DNA from: a virus
Lineage: Duplodnaviria; Heunggongvirae; Uroviricota; Caudoviricetes
Length of the DNA stretch: 17,679 bases
Strand: one strand, 5' to 3'
Virus record (IMG/VR): IMGVR_UViG_3300029234_000244
Shown here piece by piece: positions 1,228 to 14,630 of this stretch; position 1 is the stretch's first letter; the number at the start of each line of letters is the position of its first letter. Both the position numbers and the translations under genes were made by a program. The notes beneath the pieces were generated by a model. That model made no database searches, was not told where the DNA came from, and saw only the letters and a program-made list of their open reading frames with translations.

Positions 1228-1515
1228 TTACTGTCTCTGGCAATCTTTATCGCGATAACGCCTGAAGTACCCTCTCGCTTCCTCATCCATACCAAGAGCC
1301 GAATGAGTCCGCTTAACTGCCTGTCTTAAATCTCCGAATCTGTCTGTAGTTGCTGGTGGGCGTGCCGCCTTACGGATACATTCAGAGCGTCTGTTTGCTG
1401 CATGTTCACGTTCTTTATCGCCATCTGCCAGCATCATGACTTCTGCCCATCGTGCGGCAGCTCTCCGGTATAGCCCTTTTGACTCCAGCTCTTCAGCTTT
1501 CCTGTCCTTTATCAT
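1228..1515 (-). CDS. PerC-family transcriptional regulator (Pch-like)
   Basis: 95-aa ORF with GAGAGG Shine-Dalgarno before the ATG at 1515. N-terminal AEELESKGLYRRAAARWAEVM resembles the conserved LE.KGLWRRAA.RW motif of PerC/Pch proteins, recalled from memory. Confidence 0.5.
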   Translation of the reverse strand: MIKDRKAEELESKGLYRRAAARWAEVMMLADGDKEREHAANRRSECIRKAARPPATTDRFGDLRQAVKRTHSALGMDEEARGYFRRYRDKDCQRQ

Positions 1516-2231: not shown

Positions 2232-3194
2232 TTATTCAATATCAAATAAATGCCTTGGGAAACCGTTATTATCAGGTAATCCCATGGCTGTCAGGTTACA
2301 TCCTGGTAAGTTAGGCTTGTTATCTACAAGGTTGGCAACTTTTTTTATCCAGTCAGATCCCGGTCCAATTTTTTTCACTAAAAACCATAACACAGCGATC
2401 ATTCCGTACATTCTTTCGTACGCATCATCATTCATATTTAATTGTTCAAAGTACGGCTCATTTGGCAAAGGCATTAATCTTGGTTCGTTGACCTTGTTCC
2501 AGATGCGTGAATGGTGAGCGCACCGATTCCTTAGCACATTCATTGCGCTAAGCCAGTTTTGGAAGATAGCTCCATTGCCTGCCGCTATCCCTAGCCTAGA
2601 TAGTATCCTGTTGCGATAGCTGTCTTTTAGCATCGCATAATACTTTGACATTAAGCCGAAGTCCCACACTTCAATAACCACCCAGAAAGGAAGACCTTCG
2701 TACTTGTTTTCATGCCATTTGATAAAGTCTTCGCGACTTTTAGCAATCTCGGCATTATGTTTATTTATCCATTCTTCTCTGGCGCTTGGGCGACCATGGG
2801 AACGTGGTCTAAAGTGTTTTGGATTTATTAGCGAGTCATCAAGATATGCTAAAGGAGATATCTTACCAAGCTCATGAGCAATAACTGACCGAACATAAAC
2901 CTCAATGCGTTCTAACGCATTCATCATCTGCAAACGCAGATTTTTATCGAATAAATAGAGGTCATATACTGCGCGAAAATTAGTACCTGGACGAACCTGA
3001 TCGAGTCTGGTTCTAATATTGTCTGTTGTTATATGGGGGATTCGGCAGGGGTACCAAAAGCCTGATAATCGGTAGTAGCCTACTTGTGAGATTTTCTTGA
3101 TAGCATGTTCGCGATCTGGCACATCCATACCCCGAGACAGCAATAAATCGACAAGTTCATCATATTCTTTATGAACCTTAACCGGAACAGCCAT
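2232..3194 (-). CDS. Abi_2-family abortive infection protein (AbiD/AbiF-like)
   Basis: 320-aa ORF with hallmark motifs GYYRLSGFWYP and LRNRCAHHSRIWN, and a typical N-terminus (YDELVDLLLSRGMDV). The gene is visibly AT-rich. Its stop is 1 nt from the stop of the convergent RHH gene. Confidence 0.8.
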   Translation of the reverse strand: MAVPVKVHKEYDELVDLLLSRGMDVPDREHAIKKISQVGYYRLSGFWYPCRIPHITTDNIRTRLDQVRPGTNFRAVYDLYLFDKNLRLQMMNALERIEVYVRSVIAHELGKISPLAYLDDSLINPKHFRPRSHGRPSAREEWINKHNAEIAKSREDFIKWHENKYEGLPFWVVIEVWDFGLMSKYYAMLKDSYRNRILSRLGIAAGNGAIFQNWLSAMNVLRNRCAHHSRIWNKVNEPRLMPLPNEPYFEQLNMNDDAYERMYGMIAVLWFLVKKIGPGSDWIKKVANLVDNKPNLPGCNLTAMGLPDNNGFPRHLFDIE

Positions 3195-3782
3195 ACAAAA
3201 GGTTTCCTACCTCCAGATACAAGAAGGCCCGGCCATAACAATTTCTCATCTAAGACAAGATAAAGCCAGGGGGCCGGGCTCAGTTGAGTGTAACTCTATC
3301 CGAAGTTATCCACATGTCAATGCACAGTTACTTAGGAAACTAACATAGGTACTATCATCACTCACGAAAAACCACTATATGTGGTTTTTATTCATATCGT
3401 TATCCACTACAGGCTGTGTCAATAACTTTTACCTATTAATTGGGTAATTTCTACATTTTCCTATGCTGGCTAGTTTCTCTACTGAAAAGTTGGCACTCCT
3501 TAATCGCTTTTCGGTTAATGCTATCGGTCTTCATATTACCAGCAGCATACGCCATCCGATTATTTCGATGCTACGCGCGCGTACTTGTCTCGAAATTGGT
3601 GTTTTGCTGTGGCAGTGATATCAGAAAAATCTTCCTGTTTCACATAAAGCGGATATGTGCGCACTGTAACGGCCCCATCAACGGGGATCGGATTTGAAAT
3701 CCCGACCCAAGCTATGTACCAAATGCCATGTCTTGGATATATGATGATTGCCATTCTAAACAACGCTAAAGGGAGGGTTGGT

Positions 3783-4181
3783 GTGAATCAATTGAAGCGA
3801 TTGGTTGTCTCCGGTTTATTATTTGCTTCTTTTGGAGCGAACGCTGAATGCTGGATTATTGGTGATCTGAAAGGACAAGAAGCCTCAAGTTCAGATGGGT
3901 ATAACTATAAGTTATCATCTATACCAGATACCTTTCATTTGGTAATAAGTAAAGAGAAGGCGGATCTTATCTTGGCAAAAGATGGTATAGGTGGAAGTAT
4001 TGATTATTACCCGCTATCTCCGAATGCCATGATGGGAAGAAGCTATCGAGATGGTCAACTGACGCTTGTCACATGGGCAATCTCAAATGACGGAAAAGTG
4101 ATCCATACACGAACAATTAGTCGATCTGATATAGGCTCATTTACAGGCTCATTTGTCGGCAATGTTAAAGGCAAGTGTTAA
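3783..4181 (+). CDS. Small secreted (periplasmic) protein of unknown function, Sec signal peptide
   Basis: GTG at 3783 sits 5 nt after a strong Shine-Dalgarno AAAGGGAGG, giving MNQLKRLVVSGLLFASFGANA|ECW... (n-region, hydrophobic core, A-x-A cleavage site). Mature protein is about 112 aa with one Cys near each end. The ORF track frame extends upstream to ATG 3657 and 3741, but those starts lack a Shine-Dalgarno. Confidence 0.5.
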   Translation: MNQLKRLVVSGLLFASFGANAECWIIGDLKGQEASSSDGYNYKLSSIPDTFHLVISKEKADLILAKDGIGGSIDYYPLSPNAMMGRSYRDGQLTLVTWAISNDGKVIHTRTISRSDIGSFTGSFVGNVKGKC

Positions 4182-4242
4182 TGTTCATAACTATTTGAAA
4201 AAATACTAATTACTATTATAACCAACCATCCATGGCCATCTG

Positions 4243-6348
4243 TTATTGAGCTTCCTTTTGCGATGCTTGTGCGACTCTGGTGAGCGATTGTGTGACCGTA
4301 CTGATCGCTCTGTCATATGCTGTGCTACCTTTTGGCGTATTTGCCAGACGTAACAAGGCATTTCGTATAACAGGGCTTTCGTATGCCTTCGCTGCTCCGC
4401 CTACGGCACCAGCAGCAGGAACAACAAACGCAGCCGTTTTTAGCATCCCCGCTAATACTGCTGCGTTTATGATGCCACCACCAACTAACAATCCATAAAG
4501 CTGCTGACCATTTAAGTTTTGAACGTTCGCTTTTGCCGCGTGTCTTGTATCGTTGAGGTATTTAATAACGCCGTCCAGTTCCTTTCCATGTATGCCTTTA
4601 AAGAAAGTTGCTGATTGCTTCCTGTTCCGGTGTAACGCATTAATAAACTTCTCAACACTGATATTTCCAGACGGATCAGTCGCCTTATCTACAGCATTCT
4701 GAACTATGGCTGCTCGTGCGTTTTGCCTACCATTGTCATCCAGAAGCCTGTAAAGCTGAGAACGTTCTGATGGGCTTTGGCTAAAAACAAGTTTTGTTAC
4801 ATCCTCAGGCGTGGCCTTGCCGCTGGCTATTGCCTTTTGAACGCGCGTTCTTCCCATCATGTCATTGAATTTAGACCATGAGCGATCAACCCTTGCCATA
4901 TTAATAGCTTCGTCTGCTCCAAGATTTTTGGCTACGGCTTTTTTCATATCCGCCGTATATGCCTTGTAGATAATATCGCTGGCTTTCTGGAGCGTATCTT
5001 TATCAACAGTGTCAGATGACGCCATAAATCGCTTTCGAAGATCGGTTCTGTTTTCCCTCGCCAGACGCAGGTCATTTGGTCCGCTGGTGATATCGTCTTT
5101 AAATTGCTGCAAGACTTTTACCGCGGCTCTATCCTGAGATTTGCCCGGGCGGCTTAACACGGCAATCTGATTGTCGATAGCTTTTACCGTGTTTGAGAGA
5201 TCGACAGGGGTATCCCCCATAGCGTCAATTATGCGGTTATATCGCTTTCCTGCTGCCTCAATGAATTTTTGTTGCCCTTTAGTCGCAGATTCATAAAGCT
5301 GTTTATCAGAAATGCCACCCAGACCATCGCTAAATGTTCTGACTAAATTTTCTCGTGCTTGTTGTTGATTCAGCCGATTCTTACCGGTTCCAAAAAAAGG
5401 AACTCTTTCGCCTAATGTCTGAGCCTGACTCTGCATAAAGGTTTTATCTTTCAGCATGTCACTGGTCATTAACGGCAGATTTCTTTCCGATGCAAAGTCG
5501 ACAGCAGCCTTTGCTTCAGGCGACATATCACCACGAACAGCCCTCGAAACCGCACTCGCTGTATTTTCCAGCCCCTTACCAATACCACCAATGCCAGCAG
5601 AAATTACCGTTTGTAACGGATCAATATCTTCTCCACCAGCGAGGCTGGTGGCTCCCTGTAGTGCTAAATCTGTAGCTGCTGATTTCCCTATGGCCCCCAG
5701 CACCGTTCCGGCCCTGCCCGCTGGTGTAAACGCCAGCGCATTAGCCAGAAACGATGCCACGTCTTGCGGCGATAAACCCGGCTTGTTCAGAGCATAATCA
5801 CCGGATGGCAGGGAAACGATAGTGTTACCCTTCTCATCCTGCCTTAATTTCGCTCCCATGCTCTGAAGAATCTTTTCCTGAGATGCGTCAGAGCCGAAAA
5901 GTTGAGACCATCGAGCTTTTAGAGCATCCATGCTGAGTGAGGTTAACTCTGGGGCAAGGTCGACATTTTGCAGTCTCTCCATCTCTGGAGTCATTCGGCT
6001 TTCGCCTGTTATAGCATCGCGCATCGCAGCCCCAAGACTGGCTCCCTGTTCTGCTGAACGCTCAAGCCCCTCTCTTTGCTGAGTAGCTAACTTTGCATAC
6101 CCTGACGCAATAGAATTATCAGATGATGTATGTTGAATATTTTGAGTTGCTGATTGGGATCGGTCTATTTCATTCGTTGATGGTAGTGGATAGGCAGCAT
6201 AAAAAGCCTGCTTAGCCTGCTCTACACTTTCTCCGGCTTGCGGGGCAACGACTTCATTGAAGTATTGCTCCTGAGCCTGCGCTTTTTGTTCTGGTGCTAA
6301 CGCCTGATACTGTGGAGAGGCGATAACATCTTTCCATGCTTTAGCCAT
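4243..6348 (-). CDS. Hypothetical 701-aa protein, Ala/Gln/Gly-rich, C-proximal hydrophobic Gly/Ala segment
   Basis: Long ORF with GGGGTGA Shine-Dalgarno; its ATG overlaps the upstream stop (TAATG at 6346-6350). Contains LYGLLVGGGIINAAVLAGMLKTAAFVVPAAGAVGGAA about 60 aa from the C-terminus. I see no Walker A or other catalytic motif. Confidence 0.8.
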   Translation of the reverse strand: MAKAWKDVIASPQYQALAPEQKAQAQEQYFNEVVAPQAGESVEQAKQAFYAAYPLPSTNEIDRSQSATQNIQHTSSDNSIASGYAKLATQQREGLERSAEQGASLGAAMRDAITGESRMTPEMERLQNVDLAPELTSLSMDALKARWSQLFGSDASQEKILQSMGAKLRQDEKGNTIVSLPSGDYALNKPGLSPQDVASFLANALAFTPAGRAGTVLGAIGKSAATDLALQGATSLAGGEDIDPLQTVISAGIGGIGKGLENTASAVSRAVRGDMSPEAKAAVDFASERNLPLMTSDMLKDKTFMQSQAQTLGERVPFFGTGKNRLNQQQARENLVRTFSDGLGGISDKQLYESATKGQQKFIEAAGKRYNRIIDAMGDTPVDLSNTVKAIDNQIAVLSRPGKSQDRAAVKVLQQFKDDITSGPNDLRLARENRTDLRKRFMASSDTVDKDTLQKASDIIYKAYTADMKKAVAKNLGADEAINMARVDRSWSKFNDMMGRTRVQKAIASGKATPEDVTKLVFSQSPSERSQLYRLLDDNGRQNARAAIVQNAVDKATDPSGNISVEKFINALHRNRKQSATFFKGIHGKELDGVIKYLNDTRHAAKANVQNLNGQQLYGLLVGGGIINAAVLAGMLKTAAFVVPAAGAVGGAAKAYESPVIRNALLRLANTPKGSTAYDRAISTVTQSLTRVAQASQKEAQ

Positions 6349-7814
6349 TAATCACCCCATAGTGAAGAAAAGTTACTGCTGGCTGCTGGCTGTGATACCT
6401 GCTCAGATTGCGGCAATGTCTGCGACGAAGAAGAAGTTCCTCTGTCAACTGCTGAAATAACCCGCAAAGCATCATAAGTTCGACCAGAAGCAGCTTTCAG
6501 CGAATTGAACTGGTTTTCCATCTTCCGGCGCTTGGTATCAATGGTTTTTGTGGAGTCGCCAGGCTGAGGGAAATACATTTGATAATATTTTGACATTTCA
6601 GCAGGTGCGATAGCTGCCCCTGTTTCCTGACGGAGTATTGCCATTATTGCGTCATTAGCATTAACAACGTATTGCTGCTCTGCTGGGCTGAGCGTTAAGT
6701 TAGCCAGCGTCCCATTACCCAAAGCATTATTAATGATCGCCACTCGCTGTGGGCTAAGCTGGTCTTTCAGTGTATCTATTGAATCAAGAGCATCCCTAAC
6801 CCTGTATGCAAATCCAGCAGCTTTTTTAGCCCCTTCTGGCGACTTTTCCATGATCTTTTGGGCTGTTGGCAAAGCTATTGGACGAAACCCATCTCCAGAT
6901 ATTGGCTGGTTTAGTTTTCCCTGCTCTTCACTTCCGTCTGTGTAGTATTTTGTGACAGTGCCATCATCGTTTTCTCTAACACTCATTAATTTTTTGGTGT
7001 TTGTATTAATTCCAGCCGCTGCCGCAAATGCCGCCGCCCCCTCTGGATCAGCCTTTAACATTTGCGCGTACTGATTGTAATTCTGCATTGCTGCTGTTGG
7101 TGCATATGCTGACGTTAACGCATTTGCTCGGCTAATATCCTGCCCTCTCGCCTGAAGTGCTTCACCAGCCTGATTGCTGCGGATTGTCTCTGCCAACTTG
7201 CCACGCTCAATATCCCGACTTTCCATTTGATCTTTGATATCGAAATACTTCTCATGACCGAGAGAAAACAGCGCCAGATTACCTGCGAAATGCTGGAAGC
7301 CCTGCGGGTCATTAACCTGCATTTCAGCAATAGTTTCTGGAGGGATACCTAAACGACGCATCTCCTGCTCATTATCCATCATGAACCTGCCAAATGCGCC
7401 CGGACCAAGCGATGAGGCTACCTGTGCTTTGAGCGCCAGATTGCCATAATCATCCCTTTGAGCATCATCGACATAACTCATCCCTTTACGGACTTCCTCA
7501 AACTCTTCTGGGAATGCTGTAATAAGATTACGCATCTGCTCCCTGTCACCGGACGCATAAGCATCTGCATAACCTTTCTGGAATGCCGCTTTACGCTCCT
7601 GCTGTTGCTGCTGCTTATAAATATCAGCAACTCCAGCCAGACCACGAAGACCTGTCAGAGCAACGTTATTTGCACCTGATCGAGCCAGTTCATTGTTTTC
7701 GCGGATCAGACCAAGCGTTGCGTTAATGTCGCTTGCCTTTGGCGCATTCTCATTTTGCGTACCGATGCCAGCAAGAAACCCACCAGAATTAATACCCTGT
7801 TGCCACGTAGCCAT
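6348..7814 (-). CDS. Hypothetical 488-aa protein, Gln/Ala-rich, no recognisable domain
   Basis: Long ORF. I prefer ATG at 7814 (MATWQQGINSGG...), 4 nt after the stop of the 57-aa gene. The ORF track uses a GTG at 7826, which would overlap that gene. Stop overlaps the start of the 701-aa gene. Confidence 0.8.
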   Translation of the reverse strand: MATWQQGINSGGFLAGIGTQNENAPKASDINATLGLIRENNELARSGANNVALTGLRGLAGVADIYKQQQQQERKAAFQKGYADAYASGDREQMRNLITAFPEEFEEVRKGMSYVDDAQRDDYGNLALKAQVASSLGPGAFGRFMMDNEQEMRRLGIPPETIAEMQVNDPQGFQHFAGNLALFSLGHEKYFDIKDQMESRDIERGKLAETIRSNQAGEALQARGQDISRANALTSAYAPTAAMQNYNQYAQMLKADPEGAAAFAAAAGINTNTKKLMSVRENDDGTVTKYYTDGSEEQGKLNQPISGDGFRPIALPTAQKIMEKSPEGAKKAAGFAYRVRDALDSIDTLKDQLSPQRVAIINNALGNGTLANLTLSPAEQQYVVNANDAIMAILRQETGAAIAPAEMSKYYQMYFPQPGDSTKTIDTKRRKMENQFNSLKAASGRTYDALRVISAVDRGTSSSSQTLPQSEQVSQPAASSNFSSLWGD

Positions 7815-7818
7815 TGAT

Positions 7819-7992
7819 TTACCCACGTCCAGTTAAAGTGTAAGCCAGCGCCTTATCCATTAATCCCCGAGCAATTTCGTGGATCGTTGGCGCAACTCCT
7901 ACCTCTGATTTTTTACGCTGCTCCTCCTGAATTTTCTTTATCGCTTCCATTTGCTTCTCACTTATCAATACCGGCTTTACTGAAATAGCCAT
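7819..7992 (-). CDS. Small 57-aa protein, helix-rich, possible DNA-binding (HTH/RHH-like); first gene of the LexA-box operon
   Basis: Translated by hand: MAISVKPVLISEKQMEAIKKIQEEQRKKSEVGVAPTIHEIARGLMDKALAYTLTGRG. Shine-Dalgarno AAGGGGG lies 4 nt before the ATG at 7992. Below the 60-aa cut-off of the ORF track. Confidence 0.55.
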   Translation of the reverse strand: MAISVKPVLISEKQMEAIKKIQEEQRKKSEVGVAPTIHEIARGLMDKALAYTLTGRG

Positions 7993-8005
7993 AACGCCCC
8001 CTTAG

Positions 8006-8031
8006 AACTGTATAAAACAACAGTTATTATA
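8006..8031 (-). promoter_or_regulatory. LexA (SOS) box CTGT-N8-ACAG abutting a TATAAT -10 element
   Basis: Plus 8008-8023 CTGTataaaacaACAG, within the palindrome AACTGTATAAAACAACAGTT (8006-8025). On the minus strand TATAAT (8031-8026) lies immediately upstream. The box sits 14 nt before the ATG of the 57-aa gene. The -35 is weak. Confidence 0.6.
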
Positions 8032-8087
8032 GTTTCACAAATCGCAATATTCATCATCGTAATTGCAAAATATGAAACAAACAGCAC

Positions 8088-8120
8088 AAAAAAATGCCAC
8101 CGCTCAGTAGCTGGTGGCAT
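8088..8120 (-). terminator. Rho-independent terminator (minus strand) ending the primase operon
   Basis: Minus-strand reading ATGCCACC-(11 nt loop)-GGTGGCAT followed by T7 (plus-strand A-run 8088-8094). Lies downstream of the primase gene and iteron cluster 2, just before the LexA promoter. Confidence 0.6.
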
Positions 8121-8440
8121 CGTTCTGTGTGTCAGGTTTTGACAGGTTTTTTATGGACTCTAAAAACTATATTTATGGTGTCGCATTACTCTTCACGGCA
8201 GGCGCTTTTCAGTTCTGCCCTTGCTTCTGGCTCCATTGGTAATTTGATTCGCGATCAGCTATGCGGATGGTTTGCTGAACAGGCATAACAACTTCTCAGG
8301 GGCTGTTTTCTGAACTACGAAAATTTCGTAGTGCTCACTTTCAAAAACGTCACGCCCTTGTACACAGGATTTTACGAAAGTCTCGTAAAACACTCTCTGA
8401 TGCCAGCCAGGTGTTGAGCGCATCAATTCAGTCACATTGT

Positions 8441-8551
8441 GTTGGTTCAAAATACCGTGTTGTTGGTTCAGTGTTGGTTCAATAAAAAGAATAAAATCCT
8501 TACAAAACAATACTCTTTGCAAATTGAACCAACTGAACCAACTGAACCAAC
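8441..8551. repeat. Iteron cluster 2 (ori-like): 3 GTTGGTTCA at 21/11-bp spacing, AT-rich spacer, then 3 tandem TGAACCAAC
   Basis: GTTGGTTCA at 8441-8449, 8462-8470, 8473-8481. TGAACCAAC at 8525-8533, 8534-8542, 8543-8551. Located 25 bp after the primase stop. Inverted relative to cluster 1. Confidence 0.65.
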
Positions 8552-13804: not shown

Positions 13805-14630
13805 TGAGCGCCTCCAGACGCTTGGCGAGCCAGCGTTGCGACAGGCGGGTGAGTTCTCCTTTGCGCTGCTCATATTCCATGCCCATATCAATTAACGTGA
13901 TATTGGTGCTTTCGAGATATGAGAGGTGCTCAAGCTGTTCTGCGTTCATATGGTCGCGAGGTTCGCCAGAATAGCCATTTATCCGCGCCCACTGCTTAGC
14001 AGTTAGCCCACCAAGAACGATACGAGAAATCATATTGCTCTCGTTTGTGTAGTGGTGTTGCTGCGTCGTTTTCCCCTGCTCGGCACGGGCCATGTTCAGC
14101 GCATCGCACATTGGCTTAAAGTTGTTTGCGGCACTGATACGGGCTTTTAGCTGGCGACGATAGCGGGCGGCGATTTCAGGCACGGTACGCTGTAATTCTT
14201 CCTCGCACTGGATGAAATAACGACGGATAGCGCGACCCTGATCATTGCGTTCGATCATTGCCAGTTCTTTCGCCATTCCGACACTTAACAGATAGTCTTT
14301 GCCGGGTCTGCCAGACTGCTTAATCTTGCTGTAAGCCGCGCCATTCGGGCTTTTCCCCAAATTTGGGGAAATTGTTTTATGGACTGAGTAATCGTGCCCA
14401 ATGGTGAAGTCATATTCAGAGATGCGATCAGTGATCCATGTAGAGAAGTCTTTTCCCACGCCCAACGCTTTGTGTAACGCTTTTGCGCTAACAATATTGG
14501 TTTCACGCCCACCTATATGACCAGAAATAACCGGGACAATTGCGGCAAATTCATTACCGTTAATTGTGCCCAGAGAGGCGTTCAGATGAGGGGCGGCCTC
14601 AGAAATTAATCTGCTTTTTTCGATGTTCAT
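13797..14630 (-). CDS. Phage antirepressor, AntA/AntB family
   Basis: 277-aa ORF. SAKALHKALGVGKDFSTWITDRISEYDFTIGHDY and DYLLSVGMAKELAMIERNDQGRAIRRYFIQCEE match the AntA-domain consensus pattern. GGAGA Shine-Dalgarno. Confidence 0.7.
   Translation of the reverse strand: MNIEKSRLISEAAPHLNASLGTINGNEFAAIVPVISGHIGGRETNIVSAKALHKALGVGKDFSTWITDRISEYDFTIGHDYSVHKTISPNLGKSPNGAAYSKIKQSGRPGKDYLLSVGMAKELAMIERNDQGRAIRRYFIQCEEELQRTVPEIAARYRRQLKARISAANNFKPMCDALNMARAEQGKTTQQHHYTNESNMISRIVLGGLTAKQWARINGYSGEPRDHMNAEQLEHLSYLESTNITLIDMGMEYEQRKGELTRLSQRWLAKRLEALNV

What the first reader, a model, noticed from the sequence alone, without database searches (positions are those of the whole stretch)
4243..8031. LexA-box (SOS) controlled operon of a 57-aa DNA-binding-like protein and two large domain-less proteins (488 aa, 701 aa): candidate undescribed module
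A canonical CTGT-N8-ACAG palindrome (8008-8023) abuts a perfect TATAAT and sits 14 nt before a strong Shine-Dalgarno. It heads three translationally coupled genes (TAA-4nt-ATG, then TAATG). The two large proteins are Ala/Gln/Gly/Ser-rich and I can find no catalytic signature in them (no Walker A, nuclease or peptidase motif). The 701-aa protein carries a ~36-residue Gly/Ala-rich hydrophobic segment near its C-terminus, which suggests membrane insertion. The operon sits in the accessory segment beside an Abi_2 gene, and a small secreted protein is encoded convergently right after it. The island's core operon (alpA to primase) has no LexA box, so SOS control is specific to this cargo. Competing hypotheses: (a) an SOS-triggered antiphage or toxic effector pair with a periplasmic partner; (b) satellite morphogenetic hijack proteins such as scaffold or tape-measure/ejection-like proteins; (c) a bacteriocin-like system.
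Basis: partly seen in the sequence, partly recalled or inferred. Interest (0 to 1): 0.8.

Follow-up and report, generated by a model that had tools for sequence, protein, structure and literature searches.

The report
Satellite-borne SOS-controlled phage ejection proteins
An E. coli phage satellite (an EcCIMP1-type island) carries its own copies of two proteins that P22-like phages inject to build their DNA-entry channel, behind a promoter with a DNA-damage (LexA) switch; the proteins and the island type are known, but the switch and the reason for carrying them are not explained.

Summary
The sequence features are real. A unique CTGT-N8-ACAG LexA box directly follows a TATAAT, and three translationally coupled genes of 57, 488 and 701 aa follow. 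The claim that the two large proteins are domain-less is wrong. The 488-aa protein is a P22 gp20-type ejection protein (Pfam PF16928, 6e-84; phrog_917 over its full length). The 701-aa protein is a P22 gp16-type DNA transfer protein (phrog_770 over its full length), and RefSeq already names both. [quoted passage not shown] Sister islands carry the full gp14-gp7-gp20-gp16 set. In other genera the same promoter and small ORF head tape-measure, internal-virion or baseplate-hub genes. The genes are intact, under purifying selection, and mosaic with real P22-like phages and prophages. Best reading: this is the satellite's SOS-derepressed virion operon, analogous to LexA-controlled SaPI operon I, and its products load into helper capsids and build the DNA-entry conduit for the island. 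LexA binding, virion incorporation and the selective advantage are all inferred. I rate it a new variant of a known kind, of moderate interest.

The parts
8086..8129 (-). Intrinsic terminator after the primase gene. It separates the replication operon from the ejection-protein operon.
   Evidence: Stem 8111-8096 followed by ATTTTTTTGT. Inverted repeat 8085-8101 / 8113-8129. The terminator sequence is kept in all eight Escherichia copies aligned, with single-base differences.
8032..8078 (-). Conserved 17-bp inverted repeat GTTTCAYnnnnYGCAAT (arms 8062-8078 and 8032-8048). The proximal arm abuts the -10 box where a -35 box would lie. It is a candidate operator for a second regulator.
   Evidence: Both arms match the pattern exactly, and the window holds no other exact match. 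Inverted pair I2. TTTCAT and ATT.C..T...TG.AA are invariant across five genera in alignment A1. No sigma-70 -35/-10 pair passes the scan here, so the -35 is weak.
8026..8031 (-). -10 hexamer TATAAT.
   Evidence: Read directly. Invariant in the nine promoters aligned in A1; the later survey added two exceptions, L023 and L024.
8006..8025 (-). LexA (SOS) box AACTGTTGTTTTATACAGTT, covering the predicted transcription start.
   Evidence: Unique CTGT-N8-ACAG in the window. Scores 20.6 bits against the matrix of recalled LexA sites (median 20.0); shuffle maximum 18.2. The 16-bp core is invariant in 8 Escherichia copies while flanking positions vary. A canonical box sits at the same place in Serratia, Erwinia, Lonsdalea and three Pantoea loci, with different spacers. 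It is identical in EcCIMP1.
7819..7992 (-). 57-aa leader gene: a small, probably ribbon-helix-helix protein specific to this PICI family.
6348..7814 (-). 488-aa P22 gp20-type ejection protein. In P22-like phages this protein forms the periplasm-spanning tube.
   Evidence: PF16928 at 6.4e-84; phrog_917 over 1-488 at 1.9e-143. About the first 75 residues and the last 17 are near-identical to gp20 of Lederbergvirus UPF_BP1, the middle is mosaic, and homology to the phage starts exactly at the gene-20 ribosome-binding site. dN/dS is 0.29-0.31.
4243..6348 (-). 701-aa P22 gp16-type DNA transfer protein, the inner-membrane part of the conduit. It has a hydrophobic Gly/Ala-rich segment at residues 616-653.
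   Evidence: phrog_770 over 19-700 at 6.9e-161. 67% identical to gp16 of E. coli phages N7 and HZ41. The body of the allele is 93% identical at DNA level to gp16 of true P22-like prophages. It is an intact 701 aa in the five other copies read through (L001, L003, L012, L027, L028). dN/dS is 0.05-0.18. Hydropathy.
3783..4181 (+). Convergent gene for a small protein with a signal peptide. It is a phage-moron homologue, adjacent to the operon but not part of it.
   Evidence: phrog_2651 at 8e-22. 33% identical to morons of Sf6 (gp38), phage 434 and HK446; in Salmonella phage Emek the homologue lies at 14009-14356 on the opposite strand, some 2.6 kb beyond the gene-20 match, consistent with just past gene 16. 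It accompanies the 701-aa allele in both 2-gene and 4-gene islands.

Best explanation
This is the SOS-derepressed 'virion' operon of an EcCIMP1-type phage-inducible chromosomal island, a satellite of P22-like podophages.

Proposed mechanism:
1. In undamaged cells a LexA dimer sits on the 20-mer that starts right after the -10 box and blocks initiation. A conserved inverted repeat in place of a -35 box suggests a second input, either the small ribbon-helix-helix-like product or AlpA.
2. DNA damage cleaves LexA. The 57-aa leader gene, the gp20-type gene and the gp16-type gene are then transcribed as one unit and translated in a coupled way.
3. The same signal induces resident P22-like helper prophages. 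The helper switches on alpA, island excision and replication.
4. The island's gp20 and gp16 proteins have termini matching those of phage proteins. They are loaded into helper procapsids together with the helper's gp7 and gp14.
5. At the next cell they are ejected and build the periplasmic tube (gp20) and the inner-membrane channel (gp16) through which the packaged DNA enters.
6. The satellite thus supplies the two most variable, envelope-contacting conduit proteins. The likely benefit is that entry does not depend on the helper's alleles, for example in the face of SieA-type exclusion or unsuitable recipients.

Shown here: the identity of the proteins, the operon anatomy, the box, its conservation, the satellite context, and purifying selection.
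Shown by others, for EcCIMP1: helper-dependent excision and transfer.
Inferred: LexA binding, virion incorporation, and the benefit.
For: - Protein identity.
- Satellite backbone in the window: integrase, AlpA, AntA, DUF4222, Ash, Toprim/DUF927 primase, iteron origin, and no capsid, terminase or lysis genes identified.
- EcCIMP1 (L013) has the same small ORF and a promoter whose -10, LexA box and Shine-Dalgarno are identical (two upstream substitutions), followed by gp14-gp7-gp20-gp16. It is excised only with helper Kapi1, a P22-like, recA-dependent phage, and is transduced by it. Its alpA responds to the helper, not to mitomycin C alone (PMC11773190; PMC8787464).
- Sister islands keep the phage order gp14 (PF11039), gp7 (PF25688), gp20, gp16, including the non-virion assembly factor gp14. 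This argues for productive assembly.
- The genes are intact and under purifying selection.
- They exchange segments with real Lederbergviruses and P22-like prophages.
- LexA box quality and conservation.
- The same promoter and leader ORF head tape-measure (with a 108-aa upstream gene), internal-virion-protein or baseplate-hub genes in Erwinia, Pantoea, Klebsiella, Pectobacterium and Rahnella islands, sometimes followed by a small terminase gene. The slot therefore holds helper-matched virion or delivery genes.
- Precedent for a LexA-controlled satellite virion operon: SaPI operon I (Ubeda et al. 2007, cited in PMC6092414).
- gp16 and gp20 are the targets of SieA exclusion and the most variable ejection proteins, whereas gp7 is conserved (PMC10461980). 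This fits the window keeping only 20 and 16.
Against: - There is no direct evidence that the island proteins enter virions or that LexA binds.
- The helper already makes ejection proteins, so need is not obvious.
- EcCIMP1 transfer by Kapi1 is very inefficient, and only 2 of 21 EcCIMP1 strains carry a Kapi1-like prophage.
- About half of the non-Escherichia lineages have a CTG-N9-CAG variant that scores poorly as a LexA site (3.1-9.3 bits). Pectobacterium has none. SOS control is therefore not universal in the family.
- The gp16 allele is also found in ordinary P22-like prophages. This weakens the idea that the island carries special 'escape' alleles.
- The region downstream of pri in PICIs is also a known site for defence genes (PMC11364771).
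Confidence: 0.5

Rival explanations
1. Interference or defence. The island's ejection-protein homologues are dominant-negative copies. Made on SOS induction, they enter the capsids of induced or infecting P22-like phages, or lodge in the cell envelope, and spoil DNA delivery. This would protect the population, much as Tai proteins do by blocking tail assembly.
For: The operon lies in the accessory region downstream of pri, where PICIs carry Tai defence genes (PMC11364771). It lies near an Abi_2/AbiD gene. EcCIMP1 adds to superinfection immunity of Kapi1 lysogens through an unidentified gene. gp16 is membrane-active.
Against: EcCIMP1 does not change the Kapi1 titre after induction. The proteins cover the phage family profiles from end to end and keep phage-like termini. 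Sister islands also keep gp14 and gp7 in phage order. The same allele serves in ordinary prophages. There are no PADLOC hits. LexA repression means little protein in uninduced cells, so exclusion of incoming phage is hard to explain.
Confidence: 0.2
2. Complementation insurance. The island carries working ejection-protein genes so that decayed or incompatible P22-like prophages lacking functional 16 or 20 can still make infectious particles that carry the island.
For: Pick et al. propose such an 'insurance' logic for the EcCIMP1 excisionase homologue, which can stand in for Kapi1 xis. Two P22-like prophages with this gp16 allele are annotated as frameshifted, and one has an IS element in gene 20.
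Against: The evidence is two related prophages and an analogy. Defective prophages usually lack much more than ejection-protein genes. The idea does not explain tape-measure cargo in islands whose helpers are unknown.
Confidence: 0.1
3. Passenger DNA. The cassette was picked up by recombination with a P22-like prophage and has no role for the island. The LexA box belongs to the conserved leader promoter, whose real target is the small ORF.
For: There is a sharp recombination junction at the gene-20 ribosome-binding site. Cargo varies behind a constant promoter and leader. A few loci have broken tape-measure genes (L017, L021). One record has an IS element inside the matched stretch (H3).
Against: dN/dS is 0.05-0.31 and every copy examined has an intact ORF. 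The promoter and leader occur in about 500 of 5,426 complete E. coli genomes, and the 701-aa allele in 418. The cargo in other genera is always a virion or delivery protein, not random phage DNA.
Confidence: 0.08
4. One reading: an SOS-triggered toxic effector pair with a periplasmic partner, or a bacteriocin-like system.
For: SOS control and a membrane-active segment resemble colicin-type logic. A signal-peptide protein is encoded next door.
Against: Both large proteins are full-length ejection-protein homologues. No lysis, immunity or export gene was identified. The neighbour is a phage-moron homologue on a separate convergent transcript, and in other islands that position holds unrelated genes.
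Confidence: 0.03

Closest known systems
Ejection (E) proteins gp20 and gp16 of phage P22 and other Lederbergviruses (gene order 14-7-20-16)
   Same: Full-length homology (PF16928, phrog_917, phrog_770). Adjacency and overlapping stop/start of 20 and 16. N- and C-termini near-identical to phage gp20. A C-terminal hydrophobic region in gp16. Mosaic allele diversity. Sister islands have the whole 14-7-20-16 block.
   Different: The genes sit in a satellite with no coat, portal, terminase or tail genes. They are headed by their own LexA-box promoter and a satellite-specific 57-aa gene instead of lying in the phage late operon. In this window genes 14 and 7 are absent.
EcCIMP1, the PICI of E. coli MP1 mobilised by phage Kapi1 (Pick, Stadel and Raivio, ISME J 2025, PMC11773190)
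   Same: Same backbone (int, AlpA, AntA, DUF4222, Ash, DUF927 primase, PerC). Same small ORF family. A promoter whose -10 box, LexA box and Shine-Dalgarno are identical. Ejection-protein cassette downstream of the primase.
   Different: - EcCIMP1 is at tRNA-Thr; the window's island is between yicC and dinD.
- EcCIMP1 has four genes (14, 7, 20, and a 906-aa gp16 with a transglycosylase domain); the window has two (20 and a 701-aa gp16).
- The window also carries Abi_2 and a secreted moron.
- The paper calls the genes 'DNA transfer' or possible packaging genes. In the sections and term searches I read, it does not mention the LexA box or the ejection function, and I did not see the leader ORF discussed.
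SaPI operon I of Staphylococcus aureus pathogenicity islands (Ubeda et al., Mol Microbiol 2007; title cited in PMC6092414; content from my own knowledge)
   Same: A satellite operon downstream of the replication module that encodes virion-related functions and is repressed by LexA, while the satellite's master switch answers to the helper and not to SOS.
   Different: Its gene content is small terminase and capsid-size and interference proteins, not DNA-delivery proteins. It is Gram-positive with a different LexA motif. There is no homology.
Accessory or defence region downstream of pri in PICIs, holding Tai systems (He et al., Nat Commun 2024, PMC11364771)
   Same: Same position in the element. 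Variable cargo that interacts with phage virion assembly.
   Different: Tai proteins were newly identified proteins that block tail assembly and are not described as homologues of virion proteins. Here the cargo is bona fide virion proteins. There are no PADLOC hits.
Capsid-forming PICIs and P4 (satellites that encode some of their own virion parts) - comparison from my own knowledge
   Same: A satellite supplies part of the particle and takes the rest from the helper.
   Different: Those supply capsid, scaffold or size-determination proteins. None is known to me to supply ejection or tape-measure proteins.

Membership tests
P22-type ejection protein gp20 (Pfam PF16928 Inj_translocase / phrog_917) | Sequence match above the curated threshold, over the whole protein | tested here: met
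   PF16928: 281 bits against a cut-off of 29.7, residues 12-228. phrog_917: residues 1-488 against profile 1-504 of 509, 1.9e-143.
P22-type ejection protein gp16 (phrog_770; RefSeq 'P22-gp16 family') | Full-length sequence match | tested here: met
   phrog_770: residues 19-700 against profile 3-667 of 668, 6.9e-161. 67% identical to gp16 of phages N7 and HZ41. RefSeq name. Pfam-A gave no significant hit for this allele.
P22-type ejection proteins | Gene order 14-7-20-16 with coupled genes | tested here: inconclusive
   In the window only 20-16 is present, with an overlapping TAATG. The full 14-7-20-16 order is present in sister islands L002, L003, L013, L014, L027, L035 and L038.
P22-type ejection proteins | Present in the virion and released on infection; required for DNA entry | not testable with these tools
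   Needs proteomics of particles and complementation of 16- and 20- mutants.
PICI (phage-inducible chromosomal island), EcCIMP1-like | Integrase, AlpA regulator and primase/replication gene in one direction; origin iterons 3' of the replication gene; about 10-20 kb; no capsid, tail or lysis genes | tested here: met
   Pfam hits for AlpA, AntA, DUF4222, Ash, and Toprim plus DUF927. Integrase and flanking genes yicC and dinD in L001. Iterons at 8439-8551. The only virion genes are the two ejection-protein genes.
PICI, EcCIMP1-like | [quoted passage not shown] | not testable with these tools
   Shown for EcCIMP1 with Kapi1 (PMC11773190), not for this island.
E. coli LexA regulon (SOS box) | 16-bp CTGT-N8-ACAG core within a 20-mer close to TACTGTATATATATACAGTA | tested here: met
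   Unique match in the window. 14 of 20 positions match the consensus, counted directly; the consensus is quoted in PMC8072944. 20.6 bits, at the median of the LexA sites I recalled from memory and above all 200 shuffles.
E. coli LexA regulon (SOS box) | Position over the -10 box or transcription start, close to the start codon | tested here: met
   The box starts 1 nt after TATAAT and ends 15 nt before the ATG. Distances of about 20 bp overlapping the start site are typical of tightly LexA-controlled genes (PMC8072944).
E. coli LexA regulon (SOS box) | Conservation of the box in orthologous promoters | tested here: inconclusive
   Kept, with varying spacers, in Escherichia (8 copies), Serratia, Erwinia persicina, Lonsdalea and three Pantoea loci. 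Replaced by a CTG-N9-CAG variant (3.1-9.3 bits) in Klebsiella, Raoultella, Chimaeribacter, an Erwinia MAG, S. silvae, P. septica and Rahnella. Absent in Pectobacterium.
E. coli LexA regulon (SOS box) | LexA binding and induction by DNA damage | not testable with these tools
   Needs a gel-shift assay and reporter fusions with and without mitomycin C in lexA+ and lexA(Ind-) strains.
SaPI operon I type (LexA-controlled satellite packaging operon) | Encodes small terminase and capsid-morphogenesis or interference proteins | tested here: not met
   No terminase or capsid-related hit among the window's operon genes. Small-terminase-like genes do follow the cargo in the Rahnella and Raoultella relatives. 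It works like operon I but is not a member.
Ribbon-helix-helix DNA-binding proteins (for the 57-aa product) | Strand-helix-helix fold with a G-x-S/T-x-N-type turn; homology to Arc, CopG or MetJ families | tested here: inconclusive
Known anti-phage defence systems (PADLOC-DB) | Match to a defence-protein model | tested here: not met
   No hit for the 57-, 488- or 701-aa proteins or the secreted protein. Only the neighbouring Abi_2 gene hits AbiD.

The most novel reading that the evidence does not exclude
Enterobacterial AlpA-type PICIs have a conserved 'delivery slot'. It consists of one promoter (LexA box plus a second operator) and one ribbon-helix-helix-like leader gene. Behind them each lineage plugs in the envelope-crossing proteins of its helper's morphotype:
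- P22-type ejection proteins
- other podophage internal virion proteins
- siphophage tape-measure proteins with an upstream 108-aa gene
- a myophage baseplate hub

The satellite, not the helper, would then decide how the particle that carries it opens the next cell. For example, it could get past superinfection-exclusion proteins such as SieA, which target exactly these components, in lysogens that are its best recipients.
Probability: 0.3. Interest if true: 0.8.

Novelty: new variant of a known kind. Interest (0 to 1): 0.58.

Why it matters
Satellites are known to steal capsids, resize them, redirect packaging or build their own heads. A satellite that brings its own DNA-entry conduit would add a new layer to helper-satellite conflict.

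It could also help explain two open observations on EcCIMP1-type islands:
- they lack any recognisable packaging module;
- they influence superinfection outcomes.

The element is common. The promoter and leader occur in about 9% of complete E. coli genomes, including pathogenic lineages, and the islands carry PerC and Abi cargo.

The predicted SOS switch means that DNA-damaging antibiotics would turn on this operon together with helper prophages.

It also gives a testable handle on how SieA-type exclusion interacts with gp16 and gp20.

Tried and rejected
- Sequence search of the three proteins against PDB chains found nothing. The NCBIfam scan and the PADLOC scan of the three operon proteins also found nothing.
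- I searched for the 57-aa protein in phage genomes to test whether it came with the cassette. There was no hit, so it belongs to the island and not to the phage module.
- I looked for the inverted-repeat motif elsewhere in the island, for example at the alpA promoter, to link it to AlpA. Only the two promoter copies match.
- I checked whether the window's small ORF ends with the C-terminus of gp7, which would indicate an in-frame deletion of 14-7. It does not. Homology to phage starts only at the gene-20 ribosome-binding site.
- I checked whether RefSeq's 'incomplete' flags mean the 701-aa gene is decaying. They do not; the ORFs are intact.
- The IMG/VR scan for the promoter returned only sequences that, judging by their identifiers, derive from isolate genomes, so it says nothing about encapsidation.
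- Literature searches for satellites encoding ejection or tape-measure proteins, and for LexA control of AlpA-type PICIs, found only the EcCIMP1 paper's brief mention of 'DNA transfer' genes.
- The bacteriocin and toxin-pair readings were rejected on homology and on the lack of lysis or immunity genes.

Full report
**Observation**

On the minus strand the region reads TATAAT (8031-8026), then AACTGTTGTTTTATACAGTT (8025-8006), TCTAAGGGGGCGTT, and ATG (7992).
- The CTGT-N8-ACAG core at 8008-8023 is the only one in the 17.7-kb window. Chance expectation is 0.18.
- I built a matrix from about 27 E. coli LexA sites recalled from memory, so it is approximate. With it the site scores 20.6 bits. The median of those sites is 20.0 and the best of 200 shuffled windows is 18.2.
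- Three ORFs follow: 57 aa (7992-7819), 488 aa (7814-6348) and 701 aa (6348-4243). They are joined by TAA-ATCA-ATG and by an overlapping TAATG.
- An intrinsic terminator (8129-8086) separates them from the primase gene upstream.
- The 701-aa protein has a hydrophobic Gly/Ala-rich stretch at residues 616-653.

The box ends 4-5 nt before it and 15 nt before the ATG.

**What the proteins are**

The statement that the two large proteins are domain-less does not hold.
- The 488-aa protein matches Pfam PF16928, 'DNA/protein translocase of phage P22 injectosome', at 6.4e-84. It matches phrog_917 over its whole length at 1.9e-143.
- The 701-aa protein matches phrog_770, 'DNA transfer protein', over residues 19-700 at 6.9e-161.
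- RefSeq names them 'phage DNA ejection protein' and 'P22-gp16 family phage DNA ejection protein'.

They are homologues of P22 gp20 and gp16, two of the three ejection proteins carried in the capsid. On infection these proteins build the conduit across the periplasm and inner membrane (PMC10461980; PMC8954989). The hydrophobic C-terminal segment fits the predicted C-terminal transmembrane helices reported for gp16 homologues.

There are no PDB-sequence, NCBIfam or PADLOC hits.

**Context**

The window is a phage satellite. It runs from a tyrosine integrase through an AlpA-type regulator, AntA, DUF4222 and Ash to a Toprim/DUF927 primase.
- Origin-like iterons lie just 3' of the primase: TGAACCAAC three times at 8525-8551 and three inverted copies at 8439-8482.
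- Then come the operon in question, a secreted-protein gene, Abi_2/AbiD and PerC.
- In a 99.8% identical genome the island lies between yicC and dinD.

This is the architecture of EcCIMP1, a PICI of E. coli MP1. EcCIMP1 excises and circularises only when the P22-like, recA-dependent podophage Kapi1 is present. Kapi1 transduces it at low frequency. Its alpA promoter responds to the helper, not to mitomycin C alone (PMC11773190; PMC8787464).

I fetched EcCIMP1 (L013). It has the same small ORF and a promoter whose -10 box, LexA box and Shine-Dalgarno are identical to the window's, with two substitutions further upstream. These are followed by DUF2824 (gp14), a P22_gp7-family protein, a gp20 homologue and a 906-aa gp16 homologue with a transglycosylase domain.

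[quoted passage not shown] In the sections I read and in term searches they do not mention a LexA box or the ejection function, and I did not see the leader ORF discussed.

**Distribution and integrity**

- The promoter plus small ORF is found in 498 of 5,426 complete E. coli genomes at 80% coverage or more.
- The whole 3600-8300 block is found in 302 genomes.
- The C-terminal half of the 701-aa allele is found in 418 genomes.
- Both a 4-gene form (14-7-20-16) and a 2-gene form (20-16, as in the window) are common. The 2-gene form recurs in Serratia with unrelated alleles.
- At least three gp16 alleles occur in Escherichia islands: 701 aa, 906 aa with a transglycosylase domain, and 705 aa.
- Pairwise dN/dS is 0.05-0.18 for gp16, 0.29-0.31 for gp20 and 0.04-0.15 for the small gene.
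- Every 701-aa copy I read is intact. RefSeq's 'incomplete' flags are artefacts.

**Relation to real phages**

- At DNA level, phage genomes match only the 5' part of gene 20, its 3' end and the first codons of gene 16, at 86-92% identity.
- Alignment with Salmonella Lederbergvirus UPF_BP1 shows that homology starts exactly at the gene-20 ribosome-binding site. About the first 75 residues and the last 17 residues of gp20 are nearly identical to the phage protein, and the middle is mosaic.
- The best phage relative of the gp16 homologue is 67% identical (phages N7 and HZ41).
- The body of the same allele, 93% identical at DNA level, sits in genuine P22-like prophages of E. coli. These have coat, portal, gp4, gp10, gp14, gp7, gp20, Arc/Mnt/Ant and tailspike genes.

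The island genes therefore belong to the same exchanging pool as helper-type phage genes. This argues that they are working ejection proteins.

**The leader gene and the promoter**

The 57-aa protein has no hit in Pfam, PHROGs, NCBIfam or PDB, and no tblastn hit in 50,697 phage records.
- Its family is tiny: 55 clusters among 1.84 billion representative proteins.
- In every context retrieved it was in Enterobacterales, and where upstream sequence was available it lay downstream of a DUF927 primase.
- The AF2 model has an extended N-terminus and two helices, with pLDDT 74.
- The invariant G-V-A-P-T-I-H-x-I-A-R-G-L turn resembles, to my eye, the G-x-S-x-N-S turn of Arc and Mnt. That resemblance is my own comparison, not a test.

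A DNA-binding role is therefore plausible but not shown.

Upstream of the -10 box there is no good -35 box. Instead there is a 17-bp inverted repeat, GTTTCAYnnnnYGCAAT, with arms at 8062-8078 and 8032-8048. Its core positions are invariant across five genera. This suggests a second regulator, which I could not identify.

**Conservation of the box**

In eight Escherichia copies found independently of the box, the 16-bp core is invariant while nearby positions vary.

Loci found through the small protein have a canonical CTGT-N8-ACAG at the same place, with different spacers, scoring 17.6-20.7 bits. These are Serratia nevei/marcescens, Erwinia persicina, Lonsdalea, Pantoea agglomerans, Pantoea sp. 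1.19 and P. coffeiphila.

Another conserved variant reads CTGTATAAATATCAGG, one base short (CTG-N9-CAG), and scores only 3.1-9.3 bits. It occurs in Klebsiella, Raoultella, Chimaeribacter, an Erwinia MAG, S. silvae, P. septica and Rahnella. These promoters hold no comparably strong alternative site; the best elsewhere is 12.8 bits, 360 nt upstream in the two Klebsiella loci. Pectobacterium has nothing similar.

SOS control is thus well supported by sequence for the window and for half of the family, and unexplained for the rest.

**A wider pattern**

Behind the same promoter and leader, the cargo differs by lineage but in the loci where it could be identified it is a virion protein involved in crossing the envelope.

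| Lineage | Cargo behind the leader |
|---|---|
| Escherichia, Serratia | P22-type ejection proteins |
| Erwinia, Pantoea, Chimaeribacter, Lonsdalea | 108-aa protein plus an 850-1190-aa tape-measure protein |
| Klebsiella | 671-aa tape-measure-like protein with a transglycosylase domain, plus a Dit-like protein |
| Pectobacterium | Internal virion proteins (phrog_992, phrog_684) |
| Rahnella | Baseplate hub (phrog_196) |

In Rahnella and Raoultella a small-terminase-like gene follows. This slot is therefore the satellite's virion or packaging operon, not a random accessory site.

A LexA-controlled virion operon, in a satellite whose master switch answers to the helper rather than to SOS, is what is known for SaPI operon I in staphylococci (Ubeda et al. 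2007; title cited in PMC6092414; details from my own knowledge). I found no report of LexA control in AlpA-type PICIs. Only two papers in the library hold the terms PICI, LexA and alpA together, and neither addresses it.

**Mechanism proposed**

1. LexA occludes the start site until DNA damage occurs.
2. Derepression gives coupled synthesis of the leader protein, gp20 and gp16 at the time when P22-like helper prophages are induced and switch on island replication.
3. The two proteins are loaded into helper procapsids. The helper supplies gp7 and gp14 in this 2-gene form.
4. They form the DNA conduit in the next cell.

gp16 and gp20 are the most variable ejection proteins and are the ones in which SieA-escape mutations map, whereas gp7 is conserved. 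That would fit a satellite keeping just these two. I regard evasion of exclusion, or widening of recipient range, as the most attractive benefit. It is inference.

Points against:
- The same allele occurs in ordinary prophages.
- EcCIMP1 transfer is inefficient.
- Few EcCIMP1 strains carry a Kapi1-like prophage.

**Rivals**

- Poisoning or defence role. This fits the location, since Tai defence genes sit downstream of pri in other PICIs, and fits EcCIMP1's unexplained contribution to superinfection immunity. However, EcCIMP1 does not lower Kapi1 titre, the proteins are full-length with phage-like termini, and gp14 is retained in sister islands.
- Complementation of decayed helpers. This is possible. 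Two related prophages have a frameshifted gene 16.
- Passenger DNA. Purifying selection and prevalence argue against it.
- Toxin-pair and bacteriocin readings. These have no support.

**Verdict**

The proteins and the island type are known. The module is a member of the EcCIMP1-like PICI family.

What appears new:
- the recognition that the cargo is the P22 ejection set;
- the predicted LexA switch;
- the conserved leader and operator;
- the fact that the same slot holds other DNA-delivery proteins across genera.

I rate it a new variant of a known kind, of moderate interest.

Noticed in passing
window 8439-8551: Origin-like iterons immediately 3' of the primase gene. TGAACCAAC occurs three times at 8525-8551, and three inverted copies (GTGTTGGTTCAA-like) lie at 8439-8482, flanking an AT-rich stretch. 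This is the place where PICI replication origins lie.
   Followed up: partly
window 6800-6819: A second LexA-like 20-mer, CCCTGTATGCAAATCCAGCA, lies inside the gp20-type gene. It scores 16.4 bits, just above the 95th percentile of shuffled windows (15.1). Its significance is unknown.
   Followed up: no
L006, L007, L010, L011, L015, L016, L020, L021, L022, L025 (25-27 nt before the small ORF): A variant of the box that is one base short, CTGTAT(A/G)WWTATCAGG (CTG-N9-CAG), is itself conserved across seven genera but scores poorly as a LexA site. Either LexA tolerates it or another protein binds there.
   Followed up: partly
window 3783-4181 (+): A small protein with a signal peptide (cleavage predicted after ANA). 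It is 33% identical to prophage morons: Sf6 gp38, the phage 434 'repressor protection protein', and HK446. In phage Emek the homologue lies on the opposite strand about 2.6 kb beyond the gene-20 match, consistent with just past gene 16. It travels with the 701-aa gp16 allele in both 2-gene and 4-gene islands. It may be an exclusion-type lysogenic-conversion protein.
   Followed up: partly
L001 14934-16749 and L028 8263-10078: RefSeq marks the 701-aa gene as a pseudogene ('incomplete, missing C-terminus'), although the ORF is intact and 96-99.7% identical to the window's. This is an annotation artefact, presumably because the family model is shorter.
   Followed up: yes
L039 and L040 (P22-like prophages of E. 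coli E10 and ZJ3920): True P22-like prophages carry the same gp16 allele body (93% DNA identity). In both it is annotated as frameshifted near codon 65. L039 also has an IS3 element inside gene 20.
   Followed up: partly
L003 14004-14618 (-) and L002/L013 232-aa gene after gp16: In sister islands the position after gene 16 holds other small genes. One is a weak SieA-like match (phrog_7745, 4e-4). The other, in L002 and in EcCIMP1 itself, is a 232-aa protein with no PHROG or Pfam hit. These are candidates for EcCIMP1's unexplained contribution to superinfection immunity.
   Followed up: no
L008, L009, L016-L022, L024 (Erwinia, Pantoea, Chimaeribacter, Lonsdalea, Serratia silvae): PICI-like islands carry a 108-aa gene plus a full-length tape-measure gene (850-1190 aa) and a DUF5681 gene behind the same leader. 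In L017 the tape-measure gene is split and in L021 it is truncated.
   Followed up: partly
window 1228-1515 (-) and 2232-3194 (-): A PerC-family regulator and an Abi_2/AbiD abortive-infection gene form the island's distal accessory cargo. The EcCIMP1 PerC homologue was reported to repress the LEE pathogenicity island rather than activate it.
   Followed up: no
L001 9040-9864: The island is inserted next to dinD, which from my own knowledge is itself a LexA-regulated gene. This is probably coincidence.
   Followed up: no
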